Shown: piece by piece, positions 4,437 through 55,265 of the stretch | Position numbering within the stretch: position 1 is the stretch's first letter | Layout of the letters: every line of letters begins with the position of its first letter | Assembly: GCA_000004985.1 (NCBI GenBank) | Contig: GG738894.1 | Direction: 5' to 3' (one strand) | Source of the DNA: Naegleria gruberi | Lineage: Eukaryota | DNA length: 64,000 bases | Made by a program: the position numbers and the translations under genes | The notes under the pieces: model-generated | The model's input: only the letters and a program-made list of their open reading frames with translations | Databases searched by the model: none | Told to the model about the DNA's origin: nothing

Positions 4437-6704
4437 TTACAATATGAGATAGTTCATTGAATTGGTCATCCAATCAATACAATAAAAATCAGAAATTACA
4501 AATATTTGATTGATAATTTCCAATCTGTTGGTGCATTTCATTAAATTGGAAGGAGGTTGCAAGTAAAGAAGGTCAACCAGGTCATTGAGATCTGATTCAT
4601 TGAGGGTAATGTCATTGTTAAGGATTATTTTGGAGGATAATCTCTCATTGAATTGTCCACTGATGAGTTTGGAGAAGAATTGGGAAGTGATTATGCAAAT
4701 TTCAGAGTCAATGGAGAGTTTCAAGTTTCGGTTCGTTTCTAATGTCAGAGTTAAATCACCCTTTCGTTTTCCACTTTTAATTTCCTCTCTCAAATAGGAA
4801 AAATAGTCCAATAAATCTTGCAATGGAAACTTAAAGTCAACTAAGGAAGCATGTTGAGAATCATTAGTTGAGTTTCTGACTTCTTCACAAATTGGCCTCA
4901 ATCTCGGAATGGATTCGCATAACATCAATTCCTCCTCAACATTATCCTTATTCGAAATTAGTGATTTTCTAATCCTATTAATGAGATAGGGATGAAGAGT
5001 TTGTTCTAATTTTTTGAATTGTAAAGTTGCCCTGAAAAGTTCAATCAAATCCAATAATTCAGCATTCAATTCTTTTCCTACGAGCCAATCTTTCAATAAT
5101 TCAACACAATTAACACTTGTTTCCATCTCAATTCCATTCTTTAATTGATCTTCCTTCATTAGTTCACTTTCGTCCAATCTTTTCATCAAAATTAAAGGTA
5201 TCAAGGATACGAATCCTTCTCTCGACTTTACAGGAATCTTTTTCATTGGTAAATTCGAATCTAGAAACCTTTCCATACCACCAATCAACTCTTGTTCACC
5301 ACAAATCTGTAAATCCAACTCAACCAAGGTGTCCAGATGAGGTTTCTCAACGCATGGATTATATCCACCAATTGAATAGCATTTCTTTTCAGAAAATATC
5401 AGAAACGAATCATAGTACATGTTCAATAAATTTGAATTGCTAATCTTGTACCATTGATTGGTGTGAATGTCAATAATCATCACTTCATTAATGTAATGTC
5501 TTCTGTCGTAGTGATCATTAATTAAACCATTCGAAACTATTAAATATCGATCCATGAATAAATTACCTCCCTTATTGTAAGATTTGATAAATTGTCGATT
5601 ATCATCATAAGAAATGAATCCTGATTTAACTAAATTTGGAGCACTAAATGCAGACCATTCCTTTTTTTGGAAGGAATAAATGTGGAGGGAGTTGGTGAGA
5701 GGACCGAAAGGTTTCTCTCTAGTCTTACCTGCATAGATTATCAATTCATCCTTTGATTCACAATACACAGAGGTGTGATAGGCAAGTTTAGTAAATTGTG
5801 GAGCAGTGGACGAAACTCTTTCGTTTGATGTAGACGAAAGAAGAGAAGAAGCAGAAGAGAAGAGCACACTTGGTACTTGAAGCATGGGATTCGCTGGTTT
5901 GATATTCATATCTTCTGATAGAAATTTCCATGTTTGACTGTCAAGATTAATCTCAATAATCTCATTCGAATATTGATCAGTGTTATATTCGTAACCTGCA
6001 ATAATGTACAGACAATCCTTTCGAATAAAACTTGAATGACCCTCTCTTCTTGGAAGTCTTTCCCTCGAATAGATATTTTTCTTTGAGATTCGAACAGGGT
6101 TTAGAATCGTCCATTCTTCAGTCTTTACGTCAAATTCGTATAGATTATTTGAGGAAATAACCGAACTTGTTCTTCCACCGAATACGTAAATCTTGTTTCG
6201 TTTAGGACAAGCACTCACCGAGTGATAGAAACAAGGATTCAGATAAATTCTACTATTAGTTGGAAGTTGATTCGTCTGATTGTTGGTAGACGAAAGTAAA
6301 GAAGGACCAACAAGTTGATTCTCAAATTCTCTACACTCTATGAATGATGGAAGTACTTTCCACTTTTTACTTTCTATATTATACTCCAAGAAACTATTCG
6401 AATTCAATTCTTTCCTCGTACTCCCGCCAAAAACATATATCTTTGAGTTTAGAATAACTGCCTTGTGTAGATGAATCCCAAATGGAAGGGAAGAAGGTAA
6501 ATCATTGGCGAGATTAGGATTATTTGTTGATTTTCTAATGGAAACTCGAGCCAAATCTTGTTTTTCCTCATAATTCGAATGTGGTTGAAAGAGAATTAAA
6601 TCAGCACCACTACTTGATGAAGAATCTTTTTGTAATTCTAACCAGTTTCCAACAGGCTTTGAGTTTCTTCCAAGTTTCGACTCTACACTTTGCAATACTC
6701 CCAT
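4437..6704 (-). CDS. Kelch-repeat protein with C-terminal BTB/POZ domain
   Basis: 755-aa ORF. Kelch blade signatures (KIYVFGGS, NKIYVFGGR, LYIIAGYE, CYSIGGYN). C-terminal approx. 150 aa have a BTB-like pattern (DLTLTLETNRNLKLSIDSEICIITSQFFSKLISGQFNE…LNESDLNDLVDLLY). Confidence 0.6.
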   Translation of the reverse strand: MGVLQSVESKLGRNSKPVGNWLELQKDSSSSSGADLILFQPHSNYEEKQDLARVSIRKSTNNPNLANDLPSSLPFGIHLHKAVILNSKIYVFGGSTRKELNSNSFLEYNIESKKWKVLPSFIECREFENQLVGPSLLSSTNNQTNQLPTNSRIYLNPCFYHSVSACPKRNKIYVFGGRTSSVISSNNLYEFDVKTEEWTILNPVRISKKNIYSRERLPRREGHSSFIRKDCLYIIAGYEYNTDQYSNEIIEINLDSQTWKFLSEDMNIKPANPMLQVPSVLFSSASSLLSSTSNERVSSTAPQFTKLAYHTSVYCESKDELIIYAGKTREKPFGPLTNSLHIYSFQKKEWSAFSAPNLVKSGFISYDDNRQFIKSYNKGGNLFMDRYLIVSNGLINDHYDRRHYINEVMIIDIHTNQWYKISNSNLLNMYYDSFLIFSEKKCYSIGGYNPCVEKPHLDTLVELDLQICGEQELIGGMERFLDSNLPMKKIPVKSREGFVSLIPLILMKRLDESELMKEDQLKNGIEMETSVNCVELLKDWLVGKELNAELLDLIELFRATLQFKKLEQTLHPYLINRIRKSLISNKDNVEEELMLCESIPRLRPICEEVRNSTNDSQHASLVDFKFPLQDLLDYFSYLREEIKSGKRKGDLTLTLETNRNLKLSIDSEICIITSQFFSKLISGQFNERLSSKIILNNDITLNESDLNDLVDLLYLQPPSNLMKCTNRLEIINQIFVISDFYCIDWMTNSMNYLIL

Positions 6705-11771: not shown

Positions 11772-11842
11772 TGCATTAGCCGGGAGTCGAACCCGGGTCA
11801 CCAGCTTGGAAGGCTGGTATGATACCGTTACACTACTAATGC
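11772..11842 (-). tRNA. tRNA-Gly(UCC)
   Basis: The reverse complement GCATTAGTAGTGTAACGGTATCATACCAGCCTTCCAAGCTGGTGACCCGGGTTCGACTCCCGGCTAATGCA folds as a cloverleaf. It has a 7-bp acceptor stem (GCATTAG/CTAATGC), anticodon stem CCAGC/GCTGG with loop CUUCCAA (U33, anticodon UCC, A37), and T-arm CCGGG-TTCGACT-CCCGG. It is nearly identical in its 3' half to vertebrate tRNA-Gly-TCC. Confidence 0.8.
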
Positions 11843-11930: not shown

Positions 11931-12011
11931 CGCAGACTGCAGGATTCGAACCTACGAAGGTTTCCCCAACAGATTTCAAGTCTGTCGCCTTAACCACTCG
12001 GCCAAGTCTGC
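11931..12011 (-). tRNA. tRNA-Ser(UGA), type II with long variable arm
   Basis: The reverse complement GCAGACTTGGCCGAGTGGTTAAGGCGACAGACTTGAAATCTGTTGGGGAAACCTTCGTAGGTTCGAATCCTGCAGTCTGCG has a 7-bp acceptor stem (GCAGACT/AGTCTGC), anticodon stem ACAGA/TCTGT with loop CUUGAAA (anticodon UGA), a 13-nt variable arm, and T-loop TTCGAAT. The GGCCGAGTGGTTAAGGC D-arm is typical of Ser tRNAs. Confidence 0.8.
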
Positions 12012-12080: not shown

Positions 12081-13754
12081 TTATTGATTGGATTCCTTGT
12101 AGGATTGAGCTACTAACTTCATTAGTTCTTTTCGATCGAGATGTGGATTCTTATCTTTTAGTTTCTTGTAATTTTCCTTCATAAATAAATTATACTTGGT
12201 TGGTTGCTTGGTTTTTCCAATTGGTTCCAATATTCCAGTGCAAACTCCACACCTTTGTTTTGTGGTATCAACAGATTTGGAATGTCTCTTTACAATTGAT
12301 CCACAATCCGTGCATTGCCACTGATATTTATATTCAATATCGTATGAGTGGCAAGTCGTGATTGGAATGTCAGGATAGTATTTCTGAATAATTCCACCAT
12401 ATAAATAAAATGTTTTACCATGGCCTGTAATGCCGTCGAACATAAATGAAGCAGCATGACACATTTCGTGAGCTAGTGTATGAACAAGTCTCTCTTCACA
12501 ATCACAAACCTTTGTGGACATTTCAATGGCACATACCTTGATTTGTGATTTAGTGATTGTAAAGAGTTTACACAACCCAGCAGTTTTCCTCAAATGTTGA
12601 TTCCATAATAAATATGCTTTCCCTTTCAGATCTTTAGCCTTACCCTTTGTAACTTTCATAGCTGGAAGTTTGTTTTGGAAGCATACCTTGTTGAATTCGT
12701 CATAATATTTCTGTAATAAATCATCTCTGACCTTTTTGAATTTTTTGGCATCCATCTTTTCAAAAGTTAATGTCTTTGAATTTTTGGAACTTTTTGCTGG
12801 CTTTTTGTTAGTTAATATGGATTTTTCATGGAAATCATCATCATCGTCATCAATTTCAATAACATTGGTATCAATCTTGTTTTTTGGGTTGGATTTTGTT
12901 TTCGTTTTGGATTTCTTAATTTGTGGACTTTCTGCTTCCATTTCGTCATAGTCCTCATCATCGTCATCATCCTCTCCACTACTTTCAGCATATTCCTCAT
13001 CACTCTCCTCGTCAAAGTTGAAATCCTCTTCATCAGATGATATTGCTTCCTCCTCCTCCTCCTCAGAAGAATCACTCAGCTCAAAAGCATTCTTTTTCTT
13101 TTCCTCCTCCTCAAATTCCTCAATAATATCCTGCCCCACAATATCAGATTCTTTCACCCAAGTATTTTCACTACTTGGATATCCCTCCCATTTCACATAG
13201 TATTCAACAAGCTTATTTTTCACTCGTTTTTTAATGATCCTTTCAATGGAATAAACATCATCTTTCTCCTTATCCTTCTCAAAATCATATTCTTCCTCAG
13301 AATCTGAATGATCCTCAATCACTCGCTTTCCAAATGATTTTCTCGATTTTCTTCTCACTGGCGAAGTGTTTGCCATCTCTTCATCACTTTCATCATCATC
13401 ATCGGAAATAGCAATCACAACTCTTTCATTAAATTCATTTCCAGATTTTCCGTGATGGTGATGATCAGCAGCTTCTTGAGTGGCTAATAGTGGTGGTAAT
13501 GTTGCTTGCTCCTCCTGGAAATGTACAGTACTTCTTCTTGGTAATTCCTGCTCTTCTTCCTTCTTTAATAGTGCAATTGGTTGCTCAGGAAGAGTGTTAT
13601 CACTTTCGGAAAGGAGACCTTTTGGAAGAATCGTCTCTGGATTCGAAAAGAAATCATGCCAAGTAATTGAACGCCATCCAAATTCGTTACACATGTTCAA
13701 GTATCGATTACGAGTTACTTCATATGAAAATTCTTGTTCTTGATAAATATTCAT
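12081..13754 (-). CDS. GCNA/SPRTN-like SprT zinc metalloprotease with acidic disordered region, chromodomain, Zn-finger and HMG-like C-terminal tail
   Basis: 557-aa ORF with ATG. Chromodomain-like VYSIERIIKKRVKNKLVEYYVKWEGYPSSENTWVKESDI. Very acidic D/E/S-rich stretches. SprT core 'HTLAHEMCHAASFMFDGITGHGKTF' (HExxH…GHG, as in SPRTN HEMIH…GHGPEF). Cys-rich 'CTDCGS…CGVC' region. C-terminal basic helix-like 'TKYNLFMKENYKKLKDKNP'. The domain order matches the GCNA (acidic repeat/SprT) family. Confidence 0.65.
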   Translation of the reverse strand: MNIYQEQEFSYEVTRNRYLNMCNEFGWRSITWHDFFSNPETILPKGLLSESDNTLPEQPIALLKKEEEQELPRRSTVHFQEEQATLPPLLATQEAADHHHHGKSGNEFNERVVIAISDDDDESDEEMANTSPVRRKSRKSFGKRVIEDHSDSEEEYDFEKDKEKDDVYSIERIIKKRVKNKLVEYYVKWEGYPSSENTWVKESDIVGQDIIEEFEEEEKKKNAFELSDSSEEEEEEAISSDEEDFNFDEESDEEYAESSGEDDDDDEDYDEMEAESPQIKKSKTKTKSNPKNKIDTNVIEIDDDDDDFHEKSILTNKKPAKSSKNSKTLTFEKMDAKKFKKVRDDLLQKYYDEFNKVCFQNKLPAMKVTKGKAKDLKGKAYLLWNQHLRKTAGLCKLFTITKSQIKVCAIEMSTKVCDCEERLVHTLAHEMCHAASFMFDGITGHGKTFYLYGGIIQKYYPDIPITTCHSYDIEYKYQWQCTDCGSIVKRHSKSVDTTKQRCGVCTGILEPIGKTKQPTKYNLFMKENYKKLKDKNPHLDRKELMKLVAQSYKESNQ

Positions 13755-13782: not shown

Positions 13783-13794
13783 TTTGGCGCCAAA
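13783..13794. promoter_or_regulatory. palindromic TTTGGCGCCAAA, E2F-type site about 30 nt upstream of the GCNA-like gene ATG (divergent spacer with the cathepsin-like gene)
   Basis: Perfect 12-bp palindrome matching the E2F/DP consensus TTTSGCGC on both strands. Same core recurs at 26097, 36818 and 42126. Confidence 0.35.
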
Positions 13795-15240: not shown

Positions 15241-15291
15241 TNNNNNNNNNNNNNNNNNNNNNNNNNNNNNNNNNNNNNNNNNNNNNNNNNN
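15241..15291. other. scaffold gap (51 N) truncating the 3' end of the phospholipase B-like gene
   Basis: Run of N. ORFs spanning it (15236..15640) are artefacts. Confidence 0.95.
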
Positions 15292-20943: not shown

Positions 20944-22098
20944 TTATATACTTGATATGTCAGGGAATTTCTCACGTATTTCCAACATGAATTTGTTATC
21001 CCTTCTTAGCTTTTCTCCAATAAATGTATCAAGGTTTACATGGTGATTGTGTGAAGGATCTTTGTATGATAATCCTATTCCCAACATTACAATTTCCTTA
21101 TCATTTTTGTACATGTTTGGAAGGCTGTATACAACTCCATTCTTTAAGCATCGAATGACCAGATCTCTATCTTCCAATAAATTATGTGGTAAATAATTCA
21201 GAATATTATTATTGATATCGAGAGAAAGATATTGTTCTGTGATTTCTCTTGTTTTAAACATATTGTTCATAAAGCAATAAGATATTCCATTTCTTTGAAA
21301 TACTGCCTTGGCAATATCCGTATCTGTAATCAAATGATCTGGGATGAAGCTAAAGATGTCATATGATACATAGTTTGTCTTTTGAATCAATAAGAGGAGA
21401 AATTCTTTGGTTAGAATTGATTTGTGTACGCAACCTAAATCTGAACATCTTTTGCCTATACAAATTTGAACTATCTCTGTGTCCATTCTAAAATTATTGG
21501 GAAATATAAAAAGTGGAGCATTATTGTGTACCAATTTCAGAACATTTTCTCTCTTTTCTCTAATTGGTTCTGGAAACTCACGATAGGAGAATATATTTGC
21601 CTTCACAGATTCCAGGAAGAAGTTTTCATCGTTTTGCAATCTATCACTAATTAGCTCAACATTCTTGGGGTTCTTTTTGATAGCTGCCATAGCAATTTCC
21701 TTGTCATCCAAAAACTGTTGAGGTATTTCTCTAGCAATAAATCTCAAAGAAAATGATTGAGTCATGACCATTAGCTTGACAATTTCTCTGTCATTATAAA
21801 ATTGTTTCGGTACTGAAATATCATACTTGCAACAAAGTGTCCTCAACACAAATGCTCTATCCTGTTGAAACTCCTCAGGTAAATGAGAATAGAGTGGATA
21901 TGATTTCAGAGCAGCAAGACAAATATTCCTATTCCTCTTCAACACTTCATTGCAATGAAAGTAAAACAGACCATATTGGGAAACTAATTTCAAAGCAACT
22001 CGATAACAATCTCTCAATTGTTGAGGAATTTGATTAAAAACTTTTACAGTCCTAATTAAATGTGCAATCTTTCCAATCACGTATTCATTTCCTACCAA
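20944..22098 (-). CDS. DUF4116-type repeat protein (N-terminus uncertain)
   Basis: 384-aa ORF. Repeated 'xxDREIVxxAVxxNxxALxYxSxxLKND' units (e.g. FYNDREIVKLMVMTQSFSLRFIAREI, LDDKEIAMAAIKKNPKNVELISDRLQNDENFFLESVKAN). ORF-track start is TTG. The frame stays open about 150 nt further upstream without an in-frame ATG (a nearby ATG is in +1). Confidence 0.5.
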   Translation of the reverse strand: MVGNEYVIGKIAHLIRTVKVFNQIPQQLRDCYRVALKLVSQYGLFYFHCNEVLKRNRNICLAALKSYPLYSHLPEEFQQDRAFVLRTLCCKYDISVPKQFYNDREIVKLMVMTQSFSLRFIAREIPQQFLDDKEIAMAAIKKNPKNVELISDRLQNDENFFLESVKANIFSYREFPEPIREKRENVLKLVHNNAPLFIFPNNFRMDTEIVQICIGKRCSDLGCVHKSILTKEFLLLLIQKTNYVSYDIFSFIPDHLITDTDIAKAVFQRNGISYCFMNNMFKTREITEQYLSLDINNNILNYLPHNLLEDRDLVIRCLKNGVVYSLPNMYKNDKEIVMLGIGLSYKDPSHNHHVNLDTFIGEKLRRDNKFMLEIREKFPDISSI

Positions 22099-25483: not shown

Positions 25484-26096
25484 TGATTCAACTTCTTATA
25501 TTGTTGATGATGATGTTACAATTACTGTAGTTACACTTTAACTTGCCCAACAATCAGACAAGAAGCCTTTTTATCTAATGATGATGCTATATTGCTCAAT
25601 AATGATGATGAAACACACAACACCCTTGATGGTGGATGTATAATATTCTCGAATCTAAAAGGCAACAACACAATGGAGTGTGTTGCGATTCTCAAGAGAT
25701 GAGGAAAAAACAACGTGAAAAACCGTTGGATTTGTGTTCGTGCTGCGAAATGGCCTACAACACTCAAAAAATGAAGGCCGATGAAGTGTTGAGTTTTTTT
25801 TCTCTTTCTGCTCTCTTCATTGCTTCGGCTACTGAAGATGAGTTTGGTGAGTGAATTTGAACAGGCAGGAACAATGACAAGGAAGATTGAGGGCTTAAGG
25901 TATTGGTACCATACTCCAAAATTGTTAAGCGTACAGAAAAGAAATTGTATACGAAAGCTTCCTGAATGAGAATATTGGGTAGGTGTTAAAGCTGTAAGCA
26001 CGATTATTATTCGAATTTTAAACTGTTATTTGCAGTTTGTCTGAAATGTGGAAAGTAAATAATTGGTCAGTGTATTGAGAGATGTGAAAAACAATA

Positions 26097-26106
26097 TTGG
26101 CGCCAA
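26097..26106. promoter_or_regulatory. palindromic TTGGCGCCAA (E2F-type core; TTTGGCGCC on the minus strand) in GC-richer spacer upstream of the RGS gene
   Basis: Same GGCGCC-centred palindrome as at 13783. Confidence 0.3.
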
Positions 26107-26260
26107 ATCTGTACAACTATTGATTAGTGACGGGTAATTTTGGTTTTAGATGTGCTTTGTATTTTTTAGGATCTACTGAAGGAGGCGGATTATCCTTTTT
26201 GTGGGTTGTATTTGAAAAAGTCCATTGATTTTTCCATTACCTCAACCACCTTCAAAAATC

Positions 26261-29200
26261 TCAAAAACTTGGAAATTCTCTTTCCTTTGAAAGAGGAAAA
26301 CAATAAGACAAGTCCAGAAAATAATTATTCAATGGACACTCTAATAAAATAGTTTTTGAGACTTTTTCATTTCGAGATTGCTTGATACGGATAGTAAATC
26401 TTGGGCTTACAATATGTGGCATTTTCTCTTCTTGATTATTGAATAATTTGAAGCAATTCAAATTGAAAAGGCAACATGTATACACAAATGGACTTCTAAT
26501 GAGTGACTTAAATCTTTCTTCAAGATTAAACTCATTGTCGTCCTCTTCTATGTATTGATTGTAGGTATGGAAGAGCCAGTATGCTGCCTTGTGGTTGAGC
26601 TTATCCAAACTGTCTCCATCATGTTTGATAAAGACTTTCTCCCAGTTTATCTTATCTTCTTCAAGGCAATCTTTAATGCTTTCGAATAATTTCTGTTTGT
26701 GTGCTGAGAATTTATCAGAAAGGACAATCTCATCATTTTTTCTGGTTGACCAATAGAGTCTCCATTGTGAATACGCTTCCTTAAATTCATCTTTCCATCT
26801 TTGCCACTCTGAGGAGTATATTTCAGATGGGTTTTCAAAAACAGTGTCAAGTTGCTTTGTATCTGAAAAAACCATCCTATTGAATATATTTCTAATTAGG
26901 TCAAACATTCTTGCTTCGAATGTATCAAGTTCTATATGAGATTGGTCAGTAATCTTCAATTTGCAAAGTTCCATCCACTTTGGAGAATCCTTTTTTGGAA
27001 TTTCATACAACTGTTTAGCATTAAAAGCTGATCCCTTAATAGTATCAATGCTGTCGTGATACATTTTGGACAATTTAAGTTTGATATCTATTCCAACCTT
27101 GGAAGAATCTTCTCTCCAACACATTGTTTTAAGATAAACTTCTGAAATTTTTGATGATTGTTCCATCATTTCCAATACAGTTTTTCTTACATCTTCCATG
27201 CTTAGTGAATTTTTAACAGTTTTGGTCACCTTATTGGTGGCAGCTCCATCGTTATAATTCAATTTTGGTTTGAGATTTTGATCAAATAACTTGACAATTT
27301 CTGGATCGAAAATAATCTCATACAAGTCGCCATCCAAATCACCTCCTGCCATGTAGCATAATGGTTCTGGGACTTTCTTATAATTTGGATTGTGTCCAAA
27401 GACAATGACATCTCTTCTTGATTGGAGGAATTCTGTTGGGGGATGCTTGACCAACTTTAAGCATTGGATATCACCTTCATAGGCAAGAGGATTTCTATAG
27501 ACAAGAACCTTGTCAATTTTAGCATAATCTAAACTTCGAATCAACTTGGAGCATGGGATGTGAACTTCATCATGTTTCAAAGTCGAACTTTCATCATAAA
27601 CACCCATACCACTTAAAAACCCAGGATGTTTACATTTCATACTGAGCTTGTCACTAACCATGGATTCAAACTTGCTTTCAATATTGTCTTTTACAACGGA
27701 GGAAATAAAATAATTATCCAATGAATGTTCAGCCATTATTAAATCTCTAGCAATAGATTCTTGCGAAGTTTCTCCTGATTGAGAGAGGAGCACGTTGCAT
27801 AAATATTCTGGATTATCCTTATTCTCAACAATTTCCATTAATTGAGTTTCGTAAAAATTTTTGAACAATTTTTCCATTTCTTCTTCATTCGTAGTCATTT
27901 GCAGTAAGCAAGACATGATATTTCTATTAATATTGCCACCATGAACACGAGCAACATTCAATATATCAATCTTATTGTAAATTGAATAATTTCCTTCAAA
28001 TTTCACCATTGAATTTCTCAAAATGACTTTGGTATTGGATGGCAATTTGTGCTTTTTAAGTAATTCTGCCCACATTGATTTGTTAACCTTTTGAATGACT
28101 CCTTTGGCTCCCAAAATTCTTACCTGCATGGCACTGATGTTCTTGAAATTCTTTTCGAATAGTCTACCTTGTTTCGTATCTGATTCAAATAACTTGTCCA
28201 TAAAGAAATATGGAACAGAGTAGGTATTTTCCAGGACTTGTTCGAAGAAATCTTCAACAGCCATACCAGCACCATCAGTCACTGCAATATCATCTGAAAT
28301 AATTTGGATATCATCTTGTTTCCATTCCACAATACTTGGAGTACTAGTTCCCATACTCAATCCAACTCTACTAGCAACCTTTCTAGGTCCATGCTCCTCA
28401 GCTTTTTCAAAGGTACCCAACATTTGCTTCAATATTTCCAAATTCAACAATGTTGAGTTGTAAAAGATACAGGAATCACCTTTCAAACCAGAATTTGAAG
28501 TACCTAACAAACAATACTTATGACCTTCATGAACAATACCATAGGAGAGACAATATTCCTTCTTGCATTCTGAGAGTGCTTTCAGATCCTCTTTGGATGT
28601 AAAATCAAATTTTACAACCATTAAACATTTTCCCAAATTCAAACTCATTAAAATTCTTGCTAATCTTGAGAATGAATTCAAGATTGAGTAACGATTGGTT
28701 CCATCACCAATAATCGCATACTTTCCATTGTTTCCCTCCATTTTCTTCCATCTGTTTTTCACATGACAAACTAGTGGATAGAATTCACCAAAGAATTGTT
28801 CGTATCCACCAGCAACATTTGAATTGAAAAGTGATTGAAAAAGAGTTTGATTAGCTTGTGATTCAAACAGTTCCAATTCTCTGGCAAAGTATCTGTATCT
28901 CTTCATCAAGTATTCCAATGGATTCTTTGCTAAATCCATGGTGCTATCACACATATAGGAAATCTTTGCACTCAACTCTGAATATTGAACATTATCTATC
29001 TTGACAACAATCTTCCAAACATTCTTTCCAAAACCAAGAACATTCCAATCTTCCCAGCCGGTGATTGTTTGCAAATCTTCATCTCTCATTGGCAATACAA
29101 TAATCAATTTACCATTAACCNNNNNNNNNNNNNNNNNNNNNNNNNNNNNNNNNNNNNNNNNNNNNNNNNNGTTGATTGCATTAACCAATGTCTTTTGATC

Positions 29201-29374
29201 TCTCATTCCTCTCTCATGGACCAATAAAACTTGTTGAACAGTTGATGAATCACAGTTTTCCAATTTCAAATAAGTACGAATCTTTCGGAACAGAATATCC
29301 TTGATCTTCTCTGTAGCTCCAATCTTGATAGATGGAGGACCAGAAATTGTTGTGGATGGGGAAGTGTCCATCAT
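26261..29374 (-). CDS. eukaryotic RNA-dependent RNA polymerase (RDR family), interrupted by a 50-N gap at 29121..29170
   Basis: ATGATG at 29374 (MMDTSPSTT…). Catalytic 'CYMAGGDLDGDLYEIIFDPEIV' (DxDGD signature of cellular RdRPs) in a protein of over 1000 aa. The ORF-track N-terminal 60 aa (alt start) are probably 5' UTR. The 3' end may include an unspliced intron (GTAAGC at about 26418). Confidence 0.7.
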   Translation of the reverse strand: MMDTSPSTTISGPPSIKIGATEKIKDILFRKIRTYLKLENCDSSTVQQVLLVHERGMRDQKTLVNAINXXXXXXXXXXXXXXXXXVNGKLIIVLPMRDEDLQTITGWEDWNVLGFGKNVWKIVVKIDNVQYSELSAKISYMCDSTMDLAKNPLEYLMKRYRYFARELELFESQANQTLFQSLFNSNVAGGYEQFFGEFYPLVCHVKNRWKKMEGNNGKYAIIGDGTNRYSILNSFSRLARILMSLNLGKCLMVVKFDFTSKEDLKALSECKKEYCLSYGIVHEGHKYCLLGTSNSGLKGDSCIFYNSTLLNLEILKQMLGTFEKAEEHGPRKVASRVGLSMGTSTPSIVEWKQDDIQIISDDIAVTDGAGMAVEDFFEQVLENTYSVPYFFMDKLFESDTKQGRLFEKNFKNISAMQVRILGAKGVIQKVNKSMWAELLKKHKLPSNTKVILRNSMVKFEGNYSIYNKIDILNVARVHGGNINRNIMSCLLQMTTNEEEMEKLFKNFYETQLMEIVENKDNPEYLCNVLLSQSGETSQESIARDLIMAEHSLDNYFISSVVKDNIESKFESMVSDKLSMKCKHPGFLSGMGVYDESSTLKHDEVHIPCSKLIRSLDYAKIDKVLVYRNPLAYEGDIQCLKLVKHPPTEFLQSRRDVIVFGHNPNYKKVPEPLCYMAGGDLDGDLYEIIFDPEIVKLFDQNLKPKLNYNDGAATNKVTKTVKNSLSMEDVRKTVLEMMEQSSKISEVYLKTMCWREDSSKVGIDIKLKLSKMYHDSIDTIKGSAFNAKQLYEIPKKDSPKWMELCKLKITDQSHIELDTFEARMFDLIRNIFNRMVFSDTKQLDTVFENPSEIYSSEWQRWKDEFKEAYSQWRLYWSTRKNDEIVLSDKFSAHKQKLFESIKDCLEEDKINWEKVFIKHDGDSLDKLNHKAAYWLFHTYNQYIEEDDNEFNLEERFKSLIRSPFVYTCCLFNLNCFKLFNNQEEKMPHIVSPRFTIRIKQSRNEKVSKTILLECPLNNYFLDLSYCFPLSKEREFPSF
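29121..29170. other. scaffold gap (50 N) inside the RdRP gene
   Basis: Run of N. Confidence 0.95.
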
Positions 29375-29955
29375 GGAAAGGGTGAGTGGGTGGTTATTGT
29401 TGATCATCACAAATATTATAATTTGTCTGGTTGAGTAGTTGTTGTTGATTTGTTTTTTTTGATTTTGAAAATTGTGTGATGTGGAGAATTCCCAATTAAA
29501 AACCCAAATTTTTGTTTTCCAGATCAAAAGAACGAGAATATTTGTTTCTCTCAACAAATCTCAAAAGAGGCAATGAGAACAAAACCATTTTACAGTACCA
29601 ATTACATTCAGTAGAATATTTGGATAATCACAATTGATCTCAACAAGGGATATTCATCTAATAATCGGTAGTGTTAGCCCAATTTGTTCCCCATTGATTG
29701 GCGAGTGTTTTCTTCTCCACATACTTTTTATCATCAATTGATTAACCCCCTCTTTGTATTGTTCCTCCTCTTCGGAAGAATGATATCAACATGTATTACT
29801 CTAGAGAATCATATTAAGTGTTATTGTGATTTCTTAAGGGATTTTTTTTTCTTCTAAACAACATACCTCATCCTTTTGGATGAAGAATATGAGTAGGCTT
29901 TTGTCTATTAGGTGACAATTATCAACGGTGTTTTATAGTTCCATATCCAAACACC

Positions 29956-30960
29956 TTATTTTCTTAGTGATGTTAATTGTTTCATTTCACTTATATATTT
30001 GGCTCCTTCATCACCAATTCGATTGTTATATATTTGAAGTGATGTCAATCGTTTCATTTCACTTATGAATTTGGCTCCTTCATCACCAATTTCATTGCCA
30101 CCAATATTAAGCGATGTTAATTGTTTCATTTCACTTATATATTTGGCTCCTTCTCCACTAATTAAATTGTTAGATATACAGAGTGATGTCAATTGTTTCA
30201 GTTCACTAATAGACCTAGCTCCTTCATCACCAATTAGATTGTTATATGTATGAAGTGATGTCAATCGTTTCATTTCACTTATGAATTTGGCTCCTTCTAC
30301 ACCAATTCGATTGCTATAGTATTAAGTGATGTTAATTGTTTCATTTCACTTATCAATTTAGCTCCTTCATCACCAATTCATTGCCACCAATATTAAGCGA
30401 TGTTAATTGTTTCATTTCACTTATATATTTGGCTCCTTCATCACCAATTCGATTGTTATATATTTGAAGTGATGTCAATCGTTTCATTCCACTAATTAAT
30501 TTAGCTCCTTCATCACCAATTTCATTGACACCAATATTAAGTGATGTTAATTGTTTCATTCCACTAATTAATTTGGCTCCTTCATCACCAATTCGATTGT
30601 TATATATATGAAGTGATGTCAATCGTTTCATTCCACTAATTAATTTAGCTCCTTCATCACCAATTTGATTGCCACCAATATCAAGTGATGTTAATTGTTT
30701 CATTTCACTTATATATTTGGCTCCTTCATCACCAATTCGATTGTTATATGTATGAAGTGATGTTAATTGTTTCATTTCACTTATCAATTTAGCTCCTTTT
30801 ATACCAATTCGATTGCCACCAATATTAAGCGATGTTAATTGTTTCATTTCATTTATATATTTGGCTCCTACATCACCAATTCGATTGTTATATATATTAA
30901 GTGATGTTAATTGTTTCATTTCACTTATGAATTCTGCTCTTTCAAAAGAGTCAAGCAACC
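29956..30960 (-). repeat. 72-bp coding tandem repeat array (about 14 units, roughly 85-95 percent identical)
   Basis: Unit TTTCATTTCACTTATATATTTGGCTCCTTCATCACCAATTCGATTGTTATATATTTGAAGTGATGTCAATCG and variants recur head-to-tail. Confidence 0.7.
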
Positions 30961-31300
30961 AACTAGAAAATTTAACATTAACAATACTATTCATAAATTG
31001 ACTTTTCATGAATAATTCAACTCGTTTCTCTGTAAATTTCTTTTTAAATTTAATAACAAGTTTTGAACGTTCCCTGATCACATTAAAGAATTGTTTTGAA
31101 ATTAAAGTACAATTATTTAAAATAAACCACGAATCATCAAGCATTGAAATTATTTCAAAACAAACATCATATGAAAATATTTCTTTTTCGAGTTTCACAA
31201 ACTTTGCTTTCTCTTCCATATTATTATTATTGTTAGTGAATATTTCCTCCGAATTAATGAATTGATGATTTTCAAAATCTTGTCTGTTTCGTTTGCTCAT
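29956..31300 (-). CDS. F-box-like / RNI-like LRR protein built from about 14 tandem 24-aa repeats; frame disrupted at about 30274..30352
   Basis: ATG at 31300. N-terminal 'YDVCFEIISMLDDSWFILNNCTLISKQFFNVI' F-box-like. Then repeats 'ISEMKQLTSLNIGGNRIGDEGAKY' (ribonuclease-inhibitor-type LRR). Two ORFs (30353..31300 and 29956..30273) carry the same repeat but are separated by two repeat units with 1-nt indels. Confidence 0.45.
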
Positions 31301-32839: not shown

Positions 32840-32959
32840 TACGAATATAATCCTGATAAATATCACTCTACTTAGTGGTGATGGTAAACTCCTGATTAAG
32901 GCTCAATTCCTTAAAGAAACCTTGCCGCCAAAATTTTAATAAATTTTAAATTCAAAAAA

Positions 32960-36477: not shown

Positions 36478-36817
36478 TTTTTCACAACAATATTTTGTTC
36501 ATCATCTATGTGCTGCTTGTTTTCTGCTTACGCTGCCATTACCTTCTCTCTCTTCATCAGCACAAAGAATCCAACTCGACAAACATTACAAAAGAAAGTT
36601 TTTTGAATATTCGTAAGGCAAAGAGAGAATCTTTTCAAGATAACATTATTTTACATTGTTGGGCAATTTTGAATTGGTTCATTTAAATGTTGTTTGTTAA
36701 TTATTAGTATTTTTCTCATGTATTAGCTGCATGATAAGAAGATTATCATATATTCGGGTAGTTTTCATAAAAAGATTAAAATTAATTTGGTCTCTGAAGT
36801 TTGCTGCAAGCTACAAT

Positions 36818-36826
36818 TTTGGCGCC
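36818..36826. promoter_or_regulatory. TTTGGCGCC E2F-type motif 29 nt upstream of the TPR gene ATG
   Basis: Sequence AATTTTGGCGCCTTTTTC. Confidence 0.3.
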
Positions 36827-36854
36827 TTTTTCATAACAGTCAAATTAAAAAGAA

Positions 36855-38390
36855 ATGAAAAACAACGGACGGCAGCCTCTATCACTCTCAAATACGAGTG
36901 GTGGTGGAGGTGGGTTGAGATCCGCCTCATCCTCAATAGTGATGAATAATAGTGGTCGTCCTTCATCAGCACCTTATGGTAGAACACCAACATCAGCCAC
37001 TAGTAGAAATTCCTTCCTCAATTCTTTTGACAGAAACTCAACTTTGAATAGTAGCAGTCATCAACAACAGGCAACGAGGAATGGAACACCTAATTCCATC
37101 GTTACAAATCCCAATTCAAATATAAATCTTAATAATTTGGAGAGTATGAGCGAGAGTGATGCCATTATTACATTATTGACAAGTTTTCTTGCCGAAGGAG
37201 AACGTTACATGAAAACAAGAGAATGGGATAAAGCAATTGTTTCTTTTACAAAAGCTTTGGAGGATGAACCAATGAACAAGTATGCTTATATTTGCAGATC
37301 GAAATGTTTTACTAATATTGGAGAATTTGATAAAGCAATTGAGGATGCGGAAAAGGCTTTGGAAATTGATCCAAAATATCATCGAGCATTTCTAGCAAAG
37401 GCAGAGTGTTTATATTCATCAGGAAAATTTGAGTATGCTCTTGTATATTATTATAAGGGATATGACCTTCGAAAGGATATTGAGGATTTTAAGAAGGGTA
37501 TTAGAAAAGCCAAAATTGCAATTAATGAATCTATTGAACAGGATGAAATTGACAGAGCATACAAGAAGGGATCGGATTCATTGAATTCATCTCGGTTGGG
37601 AAGTTTGAGCTCATCAAGACCAGGTTCAGCATCTAGTACTTTTTCTTCAAGACCAGGTTCTGCCACGTCAAGGCTCTATCAGACTCAGACGAGAAAAGTT
37701 GTCACTCCTAGGGATGTTCATTCGGGTTATACATTACCTGCCAAAAATCAGCTCAATAAGAATAGACCTTCATCAGCTGGCAGTACTCTTTCAAGGACAG
37801 TTCAACGTCCCGCTTCTGCAGGATCTTCAAGGCAACAATATAATCCATCATTCACACCCAAACCCCCCATTCCTAGACCAATGTCAGCCTCAACAACTAG
37901 ACCATCAAGTGCAAGAACCACCTATTCTGGCACCAGTAGACCAATGTCAGCAACAAGGCCAAAGAGTGCCAATGTAAATAGAAAAGAAAGATTTCTCCTT
38001 GGAGAATTTACCAAAGATGAGGATTATCTCAATAATCTTTTGAACGATCAATGTAAGTAATTGGTTTAAGCAGTATTCCTAATCATTGTTAAAGCATTGA
38101 GGAAATCAATAACTGGTGACGCTACAAAAGGTCACACTGAAATTGTTAATATTGTACAAGATACTTTGGATTATTTGGATAAACGAAAAGAATTTTGGCG
38201 ACATTCAATTACAACAGGTTCGACCACTTCTGCTATTCACGTAACACCAACACCACAAATAGTCAACGTTTTTAATCCCTTTAGAAGAGATATGTTTCAG
38301 TCGACAGTCACTAGGCCTAAATCTGCTTCGCTTTCAAATATGTCAATCTCCTCAATGTCACCTTCTAAGAAATATGAATTATTCATATAA
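36855..38390 (+). CDS. TPR-repeat protein with S/P/R-rich tail; exons 36855..38052 and 38095..38390
   Basis: ATG at 36855. TPR helices 'AIVSFTKALEDEPMNKYAYICRSKCFTNIGEFDKAIEDAEKALEIDPKYHRAFLAKAECLYSSGKFEYALVYYYKG'. ORF ends CAA T|GTAAGT (38053). The 42-nt intron ends …GTTAAAG (38094). Exon 2 is in frame (SLRKSITGDATKGH…). Confidence 0.5.
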
Positions 38391-42017: not shown

Positions 42018-42125
42018 TTTTTTTCAGTTGTTGATGAACTTTAAACTTCAAGTATTATTATTAATAATTGTTGTAGATTTCATCATCATGATTTGGATAA
42101 CGTTGATGAGAGTGTCCTTTATTTT

Positions 42126-42133
42126 TTTGGCGC
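42126..42133. promoter_or_regulatory. TTTGGCGC E2F-type motif in a divergent promoter (genes at 42017- and 42265+)
   Basis: Sequence TTTTTTTGGCGCTCAAAG. Confidence 0.3.
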
Positions 42134-42264
42134 TCAAAGAAATCGTTACACATTCGTGAAAAAATTAATAAAAAAAATAAGAACAAAACCTCTTCTGGTT
42201 CGAGCCTCTGAGTGTTTGGAACAAGTTTTGTCTTCACATATTTTTGTTCCGTAATAATCATCAT

Positions 42265-44167
42265 CATGATGTCCAATAACAATAGTATTTGCAATGGATG
42301 TTCCTCCACAACCACTACCACGATCAATAATAATTCACGTTTCCTCTCTCCAACAGCCTCCTCTGCAGCCAGAAGAAGAGAAACCCTGCTGAGTACTCCA
42401 AAGAAAGCTCCACTCAATTCAGCACCATCATCATCATCAGTTACTCATCCATCATGTAATGTAGCCATGGATGAGAAACAATCTTCATCAAAGAAGAATC
42501 ATCTCATTCATACCCCACCTCCAAATCATCACCATCATCAACATTCAATTATCAAACATACAAATTCTGTACCATCGAAGAGAGGAACACTATTGTACGA
42601 TCCAAAGAATGCTCCATCAACAGTCTCTAAATCAAGTTCTAAAACTACACATCAATTAAAACCACAACCATTGCCTCCTACATTTGCCTCACCTCCAAAG
42701 AGGAATACAACAGTTAATTTCCACTCACCTCGATCAAAAGCTCCAATTCTCAGAACACCTAAATCTCCACCAAATAATTATATTCCTGAAAATCAGAGAG
42801 AGGCTTGGTCTAATTTACAAACTTTGGGTGTGATGAGTCCATATTCTAAGAGCTTATTTAGTCCATCATGTCCAGAAACTCCATTCTACAAGAAACAAGG
42901 TAGATTTGGTAATATTATTCTTCAAACATCACTTTCTAAAATGACAAAGGGAATTATGCTTGATAATGAGGAATATTTGACAGTTGGCTGTTATACACAA
43001 TGTAATATTAGAGTTAATCACAAATGTCTTCTCAAGTTTGATCCTGATTATGATGAAGAAGGTTATCCATGTATATTTTTATGTGTTTATGAAGGAGCAA
43101 GTTTAATCAAGCTTAATGGAGAAATTCTGGAAGGATTAATTGAGGATGATATGGATGGAATTTTGTTAAAACACGACGATGAGGTTAGAATTATAGACAA
43201 GTTGTTTTACTATGAGAATTTGAATCAATACGAAAGAGAAAAGATGAAACTGGTTAGAGAAGTTGTTTCACAATTGCCATTATTTGATGCTGAGAAGGAA
43301 AATCAACCAAATCGTATCAATTCTACACCAAAAAAGGAGAATGTTGATGCTAAAACTGAATTATTCAGCCCTCCTCCAACAGGTTTTCCAACCTATGTTG
43401 ATACCCCTAAGAGAAAACAGTCAATCACCACTAAGAGAACTTCAAACGTTTCTGCTTATGGATTCCAAATGAATGCTACTTCTTTGGGATCATTTTCAGT
43501 TGCCACTGATTCATCCCTTATCTATGATTGCAATAATGAGAATATGACCTCCACAGGTAGAAAGTCTGTATCATTTGGAGAGTCTGAAGTTGTTGTTTAC
43601 AAACCTTCACACGAGCCAAGAAGAGTTTCAGCCAGATTACAAATTGATGACGATCTTTCCACATCTATGAATGATGATTCTACTATTTCTTTTGGATGTG
43701 ATAATTCAATGCACGTTGATGATGTAACCATTACACAAAGTAATTTGACAAGTTTAAGTAACCTTTGCCAAATTATTTGCCTCCAAGAAGACCAACAATG
43801 TACAGTGCAACCTGTAATTGATACTGGAAAGCCACCAGTTCTTGATTGTGATGATATAGATTTATTAATCGATGATACTTTTAGCCAACCAAATGTTGAA
43901 ACTAACAATGTTGAGCCAGTTTCCTCAATGGCTATGGATGAGTCACCGGAGCTTTCCCCAAATAAGGAACCAATTATAGATGAAGATTCTGTTGATGCTA
44001 TTCCAACACCATCAAGCTCTCATTCATCAAAAGCATCCAATTCAAGTTGTAAGAAGAGGACACCACATGTTTATACCTCTTCTGATTCCGAGTCTGATAT
44101 GTCTAGTTGTAAGAAGTCTGTTCTTTCTGAGGAAGATGAACGTTTTCTCAACGAAAGATTTGATTAG
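42265..44167 (+). CDS. hypothetical S/T/P-rich protein (possible frameshifted basic C-terminal extension to 44348)
   Basis: ATGATG at 42265. Low-complexity N-terminal third. Conserved-looking middle 'GRFGNIILQTSLSKMTKGIMLDNEEYLTVGCYTQCNIRVNHKCLLKFDPDYDEEGYPCIFLCVYEGASLIKLNGE'. The +1 frame after the stop encodes KRLREDELEEMNAPKKRKESVRR…RTRVPRRRPKPTQK (NLS-like). Confidence 0.4.
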
Positions 44168-44359
44168 CAGCAATCCAAAGAGATTAAGAGAGGATGAATT
44201 AGAAGAAATGAATGCACCAAAAAAACGAAAGGAAAGCGTGAGGAGAATTCTTGATTTTAGCAACAATAATGAAACGGTTGAGGAAATTGAGGTTGTTGAG
44301 AAACGAACTCGTGTTCCAAGAAGAAGACCAAAGCCAACTCAAAAATAAAACCTTTCGTT

Positions 44360-55216: not shown

Positions 55217-55265
55217 TTTTTTTAATATTGTAAAGATGTTTAATAAACATTTCATATTATAAAAA

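What the first reader, a model, noticed from the sequence alone, without database searches (positions are those of the whole stretch)
13783..13794. Recurring palindromic TTTGGCGCCAAA / TTTGGCGC(C) motif in four promoter regions
The GGCGCC-centred motif is embedded in otherwise very AT-rich spacers. It occurs at four sites:
- 13783..13794 (perfect 12-bp palindrome, between the GCNA-like gene and cathepsin copy 1);
- 26097..26106 (ATTGGCGCCAAAT, upstream of the RGS gene);
- 36818..36826 (TTTTGGCGCC, 29 nt before the TPR gene ATG and 340 nt before eIF2A);
- 42126..42133 (TTTGGCGC, in the divergent spacer 42018..42264).

It matches the animal/plant E2F-DP consensus TTTSGCGC, including the overlapping inverted arrangement known from DHFR-type promoters. 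In a roughly 33 percent GC background, a GC 8-12-mer appearing four times in 64 kb, always within 30-600 nt of a gene start, is unlikely by chance. The motif itself is read from the sequence. Its assignment as an E2F-type site follows from the known consensus. A promoter role is an inference from position only.
Basis: partly seen in the sequence, partly recalled or inferred. Interest (0 to 1): 0.5.

Follow-up and report, generated by a model that had tools for sequence, protein, structure and literature searches.

The report
E2F-type promoter sites in Naegleria
The recurring TTTGGCGC(C)AAA motif is real, far too frequent for chance, sits about 30 bases upstream of gene starts in this Naegleria gruberi segment, is kept in the same promoters of related amoebae, and is best read as ordinary binding sites for the ancient cell-cycle transcription factor E2F/DP.

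Summary
The window is Naegleria gruberi. TTTGGCGC occurs 5 times at 4 loci, against 0.22 expected. All 4 loci lie in the ~23% of the window without long ORFs, where TTGGCGCC and TTTGGCGC are the two most over-represented 8-mers.

I found a fifth, variant site, CTTGCCGCCAAAA at 32921-32933. Three sites end 26-28 nt before an ATG:
- the SprT/GCNA-like gene
- an ODAD4/TTC25-like TPR gene
- an unknown 349-aa gene

The flanks are unrelated, so this is not a dispersed repeat.

Orthologous promoters in N. lovaniensis, two unnamed Naegleria-like assemblies and Willaertia magna keep an E2F-type site at the same place. The sequence changes only within the E2F consensus (GGCGCC, CCCGCC, CGCGCC, each followed by an A run).

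N. gruberi encodes E2F, DP, an E2F7/8-like protein and RB, as published sequences. Its E2F recognition helix is identical to that of human E2F4.

Site 1 equals the human E2F1 SELEX consensus TTTGGCGCCAAA, and site 2 equals ATTGGCGCCAAA.

Site 2, 613 nt from the RGS start codon, remains unassigned. Binding and cell-cycle regulation are inferred, not shown.

Verdict: an expected new instance of a known element in a little-studied lineage. Interest is modest.

The parts
13783..13794 (.). Site 1: TTTGGCGCCAAA, two overlapping inverted E2F half-sites, 28 nt upstream of the ATG (13754) of the SprT/GCNA-like gene.
   Evidence: for the sequence. It equals the E2F1 motif string in PMC5449588. The Willaertia magna orthologue carries TTTTTGGCGCCAAAAC 44 nt upstream of its ATG.
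26096..26107 (.). Site 2: ATTGGCGCCAAA, in the 780-nt spacer between the RdRP stop (26261) and the RGS ATG (25483). Its target gene is uncertain.
   Evidence: No ncRNA or tRNA lies nearby. A Willaertia RGS-domain gene also has TTTGGGCGCCAAAG 341 nt upstream of its ATG, but orthology was not shown.
32921..32933 (-). Site 5 (new): CTTGCCGCCAAAA, which reads TTTTGGCGGCAAG on the minus strand. It is a variant E2F-type site 26 nt upstream of the ATG at 32960 of NAEGRDRAFT_72042 (349 aa, function unknown).
   Evidence: No Pfam or PDB match for the protein. Its conservation in other species was not tested.
36817..36826 (+). Site 3: TTTTGGCGCC, 28 nt upstream of the ATG at 36855 of the ODAD4/TTC25-like TPR gene, in the divergent spacer shared with eIF2A.
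   Evidence: The N. lovaniensis and Naegleria sp. (L006) orthologues both carry ATGGCGCCAAAAT ending about 28 nt before their ATG. TGGCGCC is an invariant island in an otherwise diverged alignment.
42123..42138 (+). Site 4: TTTTTTGGCGCTCAAA, in the divergent spacer, 132 nt upstream of the ATG at 42266 (Ki-67-like FHA gene) and 108 nt from the ATG at 42017 (TPR gene, minus strand).
   Evidence: Orthologues of the 42266 gene carry the following:
- N. lovaniensis: TTTCCCGCCAAAAA
- L006: ATCGCGCCAAAAA
- Willaertia: ATTTGGCGCC plus CCGCCAAAT
- L008: ACGGCGCCATTT
The N. lovaniensis homologue of the 626-aa TPR gene has no such site.
42143..42151 (+). Flanking conserved element TCGTTACAC (CCGTTAC/CCGTTAA in orthologues). 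It resembles a Myb/MSA-type site (AACGG) and lies about 10 nt 3' of site 4.
   Evidence: Alignment A3 and the sequences. The Myb assignment is from my own knowledge of the YAACKG consensus and was not tested.
12081..13754 (-). SprT/GCNA-like gene (chromodomain + SprT protease + Zn ribbon + HMG box), presumed target of site 1.
   Evidence: Pfam. 100% identical to N. gruberi XP_002672982.1. More distant homologues are named germ cell nuclear acidic peptidase / acidic repeat-containing protein. HP1-type chromodomain matches in PDB.
36855..38060 (+). TPR gene NAEGRDRAFT_51971, ODAD4/TTC25-like, presumed target of site 3.
   Evidence: UniRef names it outer dynein arm-docking complex subunit 4. Its best natural PDB match is TTC25/ODAD4, 7rro_I1, E = 3e-31, against 9e-17 for the next natural TPR protein.
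42266..44167 (+). NAEGRDRAFT_51974, a protein with a Ki-67-like FHA domain, an RKSVSFGE (RVxF-type) motif and KEN motifs. It is the presumed target of site 4. The gene model is probably truncated, since orthologues are about 1000 aa.
   Evidence: Profile search against PDB hits only the Ki-67 FHA domain among FHA domains, at E = 0.2. The AF2 model was too poor to use, pLDDT 37.

Best explanation
These are cis-regulatory binding sites for E2F-family winged-helix factors of Naegleria gruberi: the E2F-DP heterodimer and/or the E2F7/8-like DEL protein.

Each site is a GC core (SSCGCS) flanked by a T or A run. It sits in an AT-rich proximal promoter, typically 26-45 nt upstream of the start codon. 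If 5' UTRs are as short as this compact genome suggests, that places it at or just upstream of the transcription start.

By analogy with animals, plants and Dictyostelium, E2F-DP bound there would be held repressed by the RB orthologue and released or activated in proliferating cells. That would tie a subset of genes to the cell cycle. Here the subset includes a SprT/GCNA-type DNA-protein-crosslink protease and a Ki-67-like FHA protein.

Shown:
- the motif, its enrichment and its promoter-proximal position
- its conservation across species, with E2F-consistent degeneracy
- the presence of E2F, DP, DEL and RB, with an intact DNA-reading helix

Inferred: actual binding, the sign of regulation and its cell-cycle timing.
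For: - Enrichment: 5 matches against 0.22 expected. TTGGCGCC and TTTGGCGC are the top two 8-mers in the sequence without long ORFs.
- Position: 13 of 16 strict sites in the window plus related loci lie within 150 nt upstream of an ATG, a zone that is 6% of the sequence (binomial p = 7e-14, with an ascertainment caveat). Three further sites appear in the wider flanks: two lie 61 and 35 nt upstream of ATGs (the latter is the same Willaertia site already counted) and one lies 341 nt upstream of an RGS gene.
- Footprinting, SprT gene: Willaertia has TTTGGCGCCAAA. The metagenomic Naegleria-like contig has CTTCCCGCC.
- Footprinting, ODAD4-like gene: ATGGCGCCAAAAT in two species.
- Footprinting, Ki-67-like gene: TTTCCCGCCAAAAA, ATCGCGCCAAAAA, TTTGGCGCC and ACGGCGCCATTT in four species. 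The changes are S-to-S swaps, as the consensus TTTSSCGC / GCGSSAAA allows (consensus cited in PMC4862756).
- Trans factors: NgruE2F, NgruDP, NgruDEL and NgruRB are in the PMC4862756 source data. Pfam finds E2F_TDP, CC-MB and DP domains. The stretch [24 protein letters not shown].IQW is identical to human E2F4 in 1cf7.
- Sites 1 and 2 equal the E2F1 motif strings TTTGGCGCCAAA and ATTGGCGCCAAA.
- DNA-repair, chromatin and mitotic genes are classic Rb/E2F target classes (PMC3386910). The SprT/chromo/HMG gene and the Ki-67-like gene fit them.
Against: - There is no binding or expression evidence. The Naegleria mitosis and differentiation RNA-seq tables are not held.
- No canonical E2F target (MCM, PCNA, RNR, cyclins) lies in the sequence I could reach, so the regulon could not be checked on textbook genes.
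- Some motif-bearing genes are not obvious cell-cycle genes: the ODAD4-like ciliary TPR gene, the RGS gene, and the 349-aa, F-box/SPRY-like and 536-aa unknowns.
- The N. lovaniensis SprT promoter has no strict site.
- Site 2 is 613 nt from the nearest start codon.
- One strict match lies inside a Kelch coding region, at 6424-6431.
- Transcription start sites are unknown.
Confidence: 0.8

Rival explanations
1. The motif is read by a different, possibly lineage-specific, DNA-binding protein that recognises GGCGCC or CGCCAAA. The match to E2F is coincidental.
For: No binding data exist. Several target genes (ODAD4-like, RGS, unknowns) are not typical E2F targets. In the window the GGCGCC form dominates over the CCCGC and CGCGC forms.
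Against: Orthologous promoters swap GGCGCC for CCCGCC or CGCGCC and keep the A/T run. That is the E2F degeneracy, not that of a strict GGCGCC reader. The organism has E2F with a recognition helix identical to human E2F4. Sites 1 and 2 are literal E2F1 SELEX consensus strings.
Confidence: 0.1
2. The sites are E2F-family sites whose main job in Naegleria is to control differentiation (flagellum and basal-body genes) rather than S-phase or mitotic genes.
For: One well-conserved site sits on the ODAD4/TTC25-like outer-dynein-arm docking gene in three species. NgruE2F resembles E2F4/5. A review notes that Naegleria lacks RFX, FOXJ1 and XAP5, so its cilia-gene regulators are unknown, and that E2F4/5 with MCIDAS drives centriole amplification in animals (PMC12183034).
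Against: Only one ciliary gene is involved, and its identification rests on a TPR-domain match. The other conserved targets are a chromatin/DNA-repair protease and a Ki-67-like protein. No expression data are available.
Confidence: 0.08
3. Chance clustering of a GC-rich word, or remnants of a dispersed repeat or mobile element.
For: Only five sites in 64 kb. GC-rich words are rare, so small counts swing the statistics.
Against: None of 100 shuffles reached the observed count. The word ranks first in the unbiased 8-mer scan. Flanks are at random-level identity, 22-34%, and no local repeats were found. The site is conserved in orthologous promoters of other genera.
Confidence: 0.02

Closest known systems
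Animal and plant E2F/DP binding site, TTTSSCGC (GCGSSAAA)
   Same: Same core and same flanking T/A run. The same degeneracy at the two S positions is seen across orthologous promoters. The position is promoter-proximal. The organism has E2F, DP and RB with conserved DNA-contact residues.
   Different: The lineage is Heterolobosea (Discoba). I found no report of E2F sites there in the held literature. Binding and regulation are untested. The gene set seen here contains no textbook S-phase gene.
Overlapping inverted E2F sites of DHFR-type promoters, and the palindromic E2F1 HT-SELEX motif TTTGGCGCCAAA
   Same: Sites 1 and 2 are 12-mers of two overlapping inverted half-sites. They are literally the E2F1 strings TTTGGCGCCAAA and ATTGGCGCCAAA in PMC5449588. 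They lie close to the presumed transcription start. That the DHFR element sits at the start site is from my own knowledge.
   Different: DHFR carries TTTCGCGCCAAA. The transcription start is not mapped in Naegleria, so the position relative to it is inferred only from the 26-28 nt distance to the ATG.
E2F7/E2F8 (DEL) sites, TTTCCCGCCAAAA
   Same: The N. lovaniensis promoter of the Ki-67-like gene reads TTTCCCGCCAAAAA. N. gruberi encodes a two-domain DEL protein. The E2F7/8 preference is from my own knowledge.
   Different: The sequence alone cannot tell which family member binds.
Rb/E2F regulon of Dictyostelium (RblA-repressed S-phase, DNA-repair, chromatin and mitotic genes; PMC3386910)
   Same: A non-animal, non-plant amoeba with E2F, DP and RB, in which DNA-repair, chromatin and mitotic genes are the regulated classes.
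   Different: In Dictyostelium the regulon is defined by expression in an rblA mutant. Here there is only the cis element and its conservation.
E2F plus Myb (MSA / DREAM-type) paired promoter elements of G2/M genes in plants and animals
   Same: In the Ki-67-like gene promoter, a CCGTTA(C/A) element is conserved about 10 nt from the E2F site in four species.
   Different: The Myb assignment rests only on resemblance to YAACKG. N. gruberi itself has TCGTTA. Nothing was tested.

Membership tests
E2F/DP cis-regulatory site | Sequence matches the TTTSSCGC (GCGSSAAA) consensus. | tested here: met
   There are 5 exact matches at 4 loci. The fifth locus matches TTTGGCGG with a single mismatch to the consensus.
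E2F/DP cis-regulatory site | Occurs more often than base composition predicts, and preferentially in promoters. | tested here: met
   0.22 matches expected against 5 observed. The word is the top-ranked 8-mer in sequence without long ORFs. 13 of 16 sites fall within 150 nt upstream of ATGs, which is 6% of the sequence. A true genome-wide test was not possible.
E2F/DP cis-regulatory site | The organism encodes E2F and DP with intact DNA-contact residues (the RRxYD helix). | tested here: met
   NgruE2F, NgruDP, NgruDEL and NgruRB come from the PMC4862756 source data. Pfam finds E2F_TDP, DP and CC-MB domains. The recognition helix is identical to E2F4 in 1cf7_A. These genes are not in this window.
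E2F/DP cis-regulatory site | Conserved in orthologous promoters, varying only where the consensus is degenerate. | tested here: met
   A site is present in 6 of 6 orthologues of the ODAD4-like and Ki-67-like genes; the L008 site (ACGGCGCCATTT) matches only a relaxed pattern. For the SprT gene it is present in 1 of 3 strictly, plus one 7-of-8 variant, and is absent from N. lovaniensis.
E2F/DP cis-regulatory site | Physically bound by E2F-DP (EMSA, ChIP or DAP-seq). | not testable with these tools
   No binding data for Naegleria turned up in the held literature.
E2F/DP cis-regulatory site | Adjacent genes are cell-cycle or proliferation regulated. | not testable with these tools
   Kennard et al. 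profiled synchronised mitosis and differentiation, but their tables are not held.
E2F/DP cis-regulatory site | Target genes belong to the usual E2F classes (replication, repair, chromatin, mitosis). | tested here: inconclusive
   The SprT/chromo/HMG protease and the Ki-67-like FHA protein fit. The ODAD4-like gene, the RGS gene and three unknowns do not obviously fit.
DHFR-type overlapping inverted E2F element | Two inverted half-sites overlap in a 12-bp unit, TTTSGCGCSAAA. | tested here: met
   Site 1 is TTTGGCGCCAAA and site 2 is ATTGGCGCCAAA. Sites 3 to 5 are single or imperfect.
DHFR-type overlapping inverted E2F element | Located at the transcription start site. | not testable with these tools
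   No transcription-start data were available. Only the 26-28 nt distance to the ATG is known.
Ki-67 / RepoMan-like protein (gene 42266-44167, a side question) | N-terminal FHA domain plus an RVxF-type PP1-binding motif. | tested here: inconclusive
   Profile against PDB: Ki-67 FHA is the only FHA hit, at E = 0.2. RKSVSFGE is invariant in 5 orthologues. The AF2 model is unusable.

The most novel reading that the evidence does not exclude
E2F-family sites are part of the missing regulatory code for flagellar and basal-body genes in Naegleria, which lacks RFX, FOXJ1 and XAP5. If so, the animal E2F4/5-MCIDAS link between E2F and ciliogenesis would reflect a far older connection. The conserved site on the ODAD4/TTC25-like gene in three Naegleria species would be its first trace.
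Probability: 0.08. Interest if true: 0.75.

Novelty: new member of a known kind. Interest (0 to 1): 0.35.

Why it matters
E2F, DP and RB are inferred to date back to the last eukaryotic common ancestor. E2F cis elements, however, have mainly been documented in animals and plants (my own knowledge).

This result shows the same 8-12-bp element in Heterolobosea (Discoba). It is kept at the same promoter position across Naegleria species and Willaertia. That supports the view that the DNA code these factors read, and not only the proteins, has been stable across very deep eukaryotic divergence.

It also gives Naegleria researchers a concrete, testable promoter element and a short list of candidate proliferation genes. 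This is an organism with almost no described cis-regulatory elements.

The result is confirmatory rather than surprising.

Tried and rejected
- Exact-sequence look-up of N. gruberi genes for local gene calls: not on record.
- Expression evidence: Fritz-Laylin & Cande 2010 and the Naegleria genome paper are not held. The Kennard et al. supplements are not held. The locus tags appear in no paper.
- AF2 model of the Ki-67-like protein from a 5-sequence alignment: mean pLDDT 37, so I ran no fold search.
- Metagenome scan with NgruE2F, to look for E2F autoregulation in a Naegleria-like contig: it returned 80 E2F loci from assorted eukaryotes. None was close to Naegleria (best 52-65% identity on contigs of about 1.3 kb), so I abandoned it.
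- Orthology of the Willaertia RGS gene with the window's RGS gene: no tblastn match, because the RGS domain lies outside the fetched locus.
- Function of the 349-aa, 328-aa and 536-aa motif-bearing genes: no significant Pfam or PDB match for the 349-aa protein. The other two were only translated; the locus tables list no Pfam family for them.
- Dispersed-repeat or mobile-element reading: rejected.
- An ncRNA gene next to site 2: none found.
- Assigning site 4 to the 626-aa TPR gene: disfavoured, because its N. lovaniensis homologue has no such site.

Full report
**Source and gene context**

The SprT-domain ORF at 12081-13754 (minus strand) is 100% identical to a Naegleria gruberi protein. Five other ORFs match N. 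gruberi strain NEG-M proteins exactly, which fixes their start codons:
- RGS gene NAEGRDRAFT_51966, ATG at 25483
- 349-aa gene NAEGRDRAFT_72042, ATG at 32960
- 626-aa TPR gene, ATG at 42017
- 633-aa gene NAEGRDRAFT_51974, ATG at 42266
- the alternative oxidase

The TPR gene at 36855 corresponds to NAEGRDRAFT_51971, although the deposited model is shorter (372 aa).

The window is about 33% GC. It is densely packed with mostly intron-poor genes. About 77% of it lies in open frames of at least 150 codons.

**The observation**

All four sites exist as described.
- TTTGGCGC occurs five times on the two strands at four loci, against 0.22 expected from dinucleotide-preserving shuffles. No shuffle reached five.
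- Widening the pattern to TTTSSCGC adds nothing and raises the expectation only to 0.98.
- I masked every open frame of 150 codons or more and counted all 8-mers in the remaining 14.6 kb. TTGGCGCC and TTTGGCGC came out first and second in over-representation. GGCGCC is third among 6-mers.
- All four loci lie in that 23% of the window.
- Flanks beyond the core are 22-34% identical in either orientation, which I take to be about random level for this composition. The sites are therefore not copies of a repeat or mobile element.

**A fifth site and the spacing**

Allowing one mismatch shows CTTGCCGCCAAAA at 32921-32933, which is TTTTGGCGG on the minus strand. It lies 26 nt upstream of the ATG of the 349-aa gene.

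Site 1 ends 28 nt before the ATG of the minus-strand SprT gene. Site 3 ends 28 nt before the ATG of the TPR gene. So three of the five sites share nearly the same distance to a start codon.

Site 4 lies 132 nt and 108 nt from the two divergent ATGs. Site 2 lies 613 nt from the RGS ATG and 155 nt past the RdRP stop. No other ORF, tRNA or Rfam family lies nearby.

**Conservation in related species**

I fetched orthologous loci from N. lovaniensis, Willaertia magna and three Naegleria-like assemblies (one Logan, two metagenomic).

*SprT gene:*
- Willaertia has TTTTTGGCGCCAAAAC 44 nt before the ATG.
- The metagenomic Naegleria-like contigs have CTTCCCGCC about 40 nt before the ATG.
- N. lovaniensis has no strict site.

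*TPR gene:*
- N. lovaniensis and the Logan Naegleria both have ATGGCGCCAAAAT ending about 28 nt before the ATG.
- In the three-way alignment, TGGCGCC is an invariant island in otherwise diverged sequence.

*633-aa gene:*
- N. lovaniensis has TTTCCCGCCAAAAA.
- The Logan Naegleria has ATCGCGCCAAAAA.
- Willaertia has ATTTGGCGCC plus CCGCCAAAT.
- A metagenomic contig has ACGGCGCCATTT.
- All of these lie 36-92 nt before the ATG.

The N. lovaniensis homologue of the divergent 626-aa TPR gene has no site. Site 4 is therefore best assigned to the 633-aa gene.

The differences between species are swaps among GG, CC and CG at the two degenerate positions, with the CGC core and the A/T run kept. That is the behaviour expected of TTTSSCGC / GCGSSAAA, the E2F family consensus as cited in PMC4862756.

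**Positional enrichment**

I pooled the window and seven non-redundant loci (about 117 kb). Of 16 strict sites (TTTSSCGC or TTTGGCGG), 13 fall within 150 nt upstream of a called ATG. That zone is 6% of the sequence (binomial p = 7e-14).

The loci were chosen because they hold orthologues, so this is not an independent genome sample. Even so, several sites were not selected for:
- a SprT paralogue and a 536-aa gene in Willaertia
- a 328-aa F-box/SPRY-like gene in N. lovaniensis

Two further strict sites lie in longer upstream spacers of RGS-domain genes, one in N. gruberi and one in Willaertia. I could not establish that these two genes are orthologues.

**The trans factors**

The source data of Medina et al. 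2016 (PMC4862756) contain NgruE2F, NgruDP, NgruDEL and NgruRB.
- Pfam finds E2F_TDP plus CC-MB in NgruE2F, E2F_TDP plus DP in NgruDP, and two E2F_TDP domains in NgruDEL.
- Against the PDB, NgruE2F residues 63-131 align with human E2F4 in entry 1cf7, E = 7e-25. The stretch [24 protein letters not shown].IQW is identical.
- From my own knowledge, the arginines of RRxYD read the CGCG core, and the C-terminal GEGVSDLF of NgruE2F resembles the pocket-protein binding motif.

Identical reading residues make an identical DNA preference the default expectation.

Independently, PMC5449588 lists ATTGGCGCCAAA and TTTGGCGCCAAA as the two motif strings for human E2F1. These are the literal sequences of sites 2 and 1.

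**The genes**
- *SprT gene.* The protein combines an HP1-type chromodomain, a SprT protease domain, a zinc ribbon and an HMG box. Its more distant homologues are named germ cell nuclear acidic peptidase.
- *633-aa gene.* The family has a conserved beta-rich domain. Its only FHA hit in a PDB profile search is the Ki-67 FHA domain, at E = 0.2. The family also has an invariant RKSVSFGE motif (RVxF type, as in Ki-67 and RepoMan by my own knowledge) and KEN motifs. The AF2 model was too poor to test the fold.
- *Fit to E2F target classes.* DNA-repair, chromatin and mitotic genes are standard Rb/E2F target classes (PMC3386910). Both genes above fit.
- *TPR gene.* It does not obviously fit. Its best natural PDB match is the outer-dynein-arm docking subunit ODAD4/TTC25, E = 3e-31, and UniRef names it so.
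- *Remaining genes.* The other motif-bearing genes are of unknown function.

**Mechanism**

The best-supported reading is that these are E2F-family binding sites in proximal promoters. They would be bound by E2F-DP and/or the DEL protein, with RB providing repression, and would link a gene subset to proliferation.

The fixed distance of 26-45 nt from the ATG, together with the A-rich run just before most start codons, suggests that the element sits at or just upstream of the transcription start. That resembles E2F sites in TATA-less animal promoters. No transcription-start data were available, so this step is inference.

In the Ki-67-like gene promoter, a second conserved block, CCGTTA(C/A), lies about 10 nt from the E2F site. 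It resembles a Myb/MSA element. This hints at the E2F-plus-Myb pairing known from G2/M genes elsewhere, but it is untested.

**Rivals**
- Chance and repeat origin are excluded.
- A non-E2F reader of GGCGCC cannot be excluded without binding assays. It fits poorly with the CCCGCC and CGCGCC variants in orthologues.
- A role in differentiation rather than in the cell cycle rests on a single ciliary gene. It is interesting because Naegleria lacks RFX, FOXJ1 and XAP5 (PMC12183034). I rate it at under 10%.

**Novelty and score**

A full-text search for Naegleria together with E2F found 16 papers, of which 15 were listed. Judged by title and abstract (I opened three), none describes E2F sites in this lineage.

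Presence of the proteins was already published, and the E2F pathway is held to be ancestral to eukaryotes. The finding is therefore a new member of a known kind: expected, and useful for a poorly annotated organism, but not surprising. Interest 0.35.

Noticed in passing
window 42143-42151; L005 about 4839-4847; L006 about 2961-2969; L008 about 1150: A second conserved promoter block, (C/T)CGTTA(C/A), lies about 10 nt 3' of the E2F site of the Ki-67-like gene in four species. It resembles a Myb/MSA (AACGG) element. The Willaertia site upstream of an RGS gene is likewise followed by CAGTTAC.
   Followed up: partly
window 42266-44167 (+): NAEGRDRAFT_51974 has an FHA-like domain closest to the Ki-67 FHA, an invariant RKSVSFGE (RVxF/PP1-type) motif and KEN motifs, so it may be a Ki-67/RepoMan-like protein in a heterolobosean. 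Orthologues are about 1000 aa, so the 633-aa N. gruberi model is probably truncated. The ORFs at 43980-44348 and 44792-45766 may belong to it.
   Followed up: partly
window 36855-38060 (+): The TPR gene is ODAD4/TTC25-like (outer dynein arm docking complex), a ciliary gene carrying a conserved E2F-type site. In N. lovaniensis and in L006 it lies directly upstream of the Ki-67-like gene. In N. gruberi two minus-strand genes (38501-39853 and 40137-42017) separate them.
   Followed up: partly
L010 1606-1613 (Willaertia magna) and window 26096-26107: In both genera an RGS-domain gene has an E2F-type site several hundred nt upstream of its annotated ATG (341 nt and 613 nt). This could mean a distal transcription start or a 5' exon. 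Orthology was not established.
   Followed up: partly
L007 2286-2301 (same as L011 9286-9301): A perfect 16-bp palindrome, AAAATGGCGCCATTTT, lies inside a called 125-aa ORF with no Pfam match. That gene call may be spurious and the palindrome may be another E2F-type site.
   Followed up: no
window 29966-30944: A tandem array of 72-bp / 144-bp units, 13.6 copies at 80-86% identity. It overlaps the LRR gene at 30353-31300, and 72 bp would fit 24-residue leucine-rich repeats. It explains the recurring near-match TTTGGCTC.
   Followed up: yes
window 11772-11842 (-) and 11931-12011 (-): tRNA-Gly(TCC) and tRNA-Ser(TGA) genes lie just downstream of the SprT gene.
   Followed up: yes
window 15242-15291, 29121-29170, 49746-49795, 63552-64000: Runs of N, read as assembly gaps. 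Two of them interrupt coding ORFs: the phospholipase-B-like ORF region at about 15.2 kb (my reading of the sequence, not tested) and the RdRP gene.
   Followed up: no
window 20944-22098, 47405-49276, 53339-55408 (all minus strand): Three paralogous DUF4116 repeat-protein genes. The window also holds several LRR genes and a eukaryotic-type RNA-dependent RNA polymerase gene (26261-29557).
   Followed up: no
window 13745-13753, 32950-32959 and 36845-36854, and the orthologous loci: The motif-bearing start codons I read are preceded directly by an A-rich run (TTAAAAAAA-ATG). This may mark the start-site or Kozak-like context in heteroloboseans.
   Followed up: no
window 6424-6431 (-): One strict E2F-type match, TTTGGCGG, lies inside the Kelch-repeat coding region, 273 nt downstream of its ATG. 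It is probably a chance occurrence.
   Followed up: no
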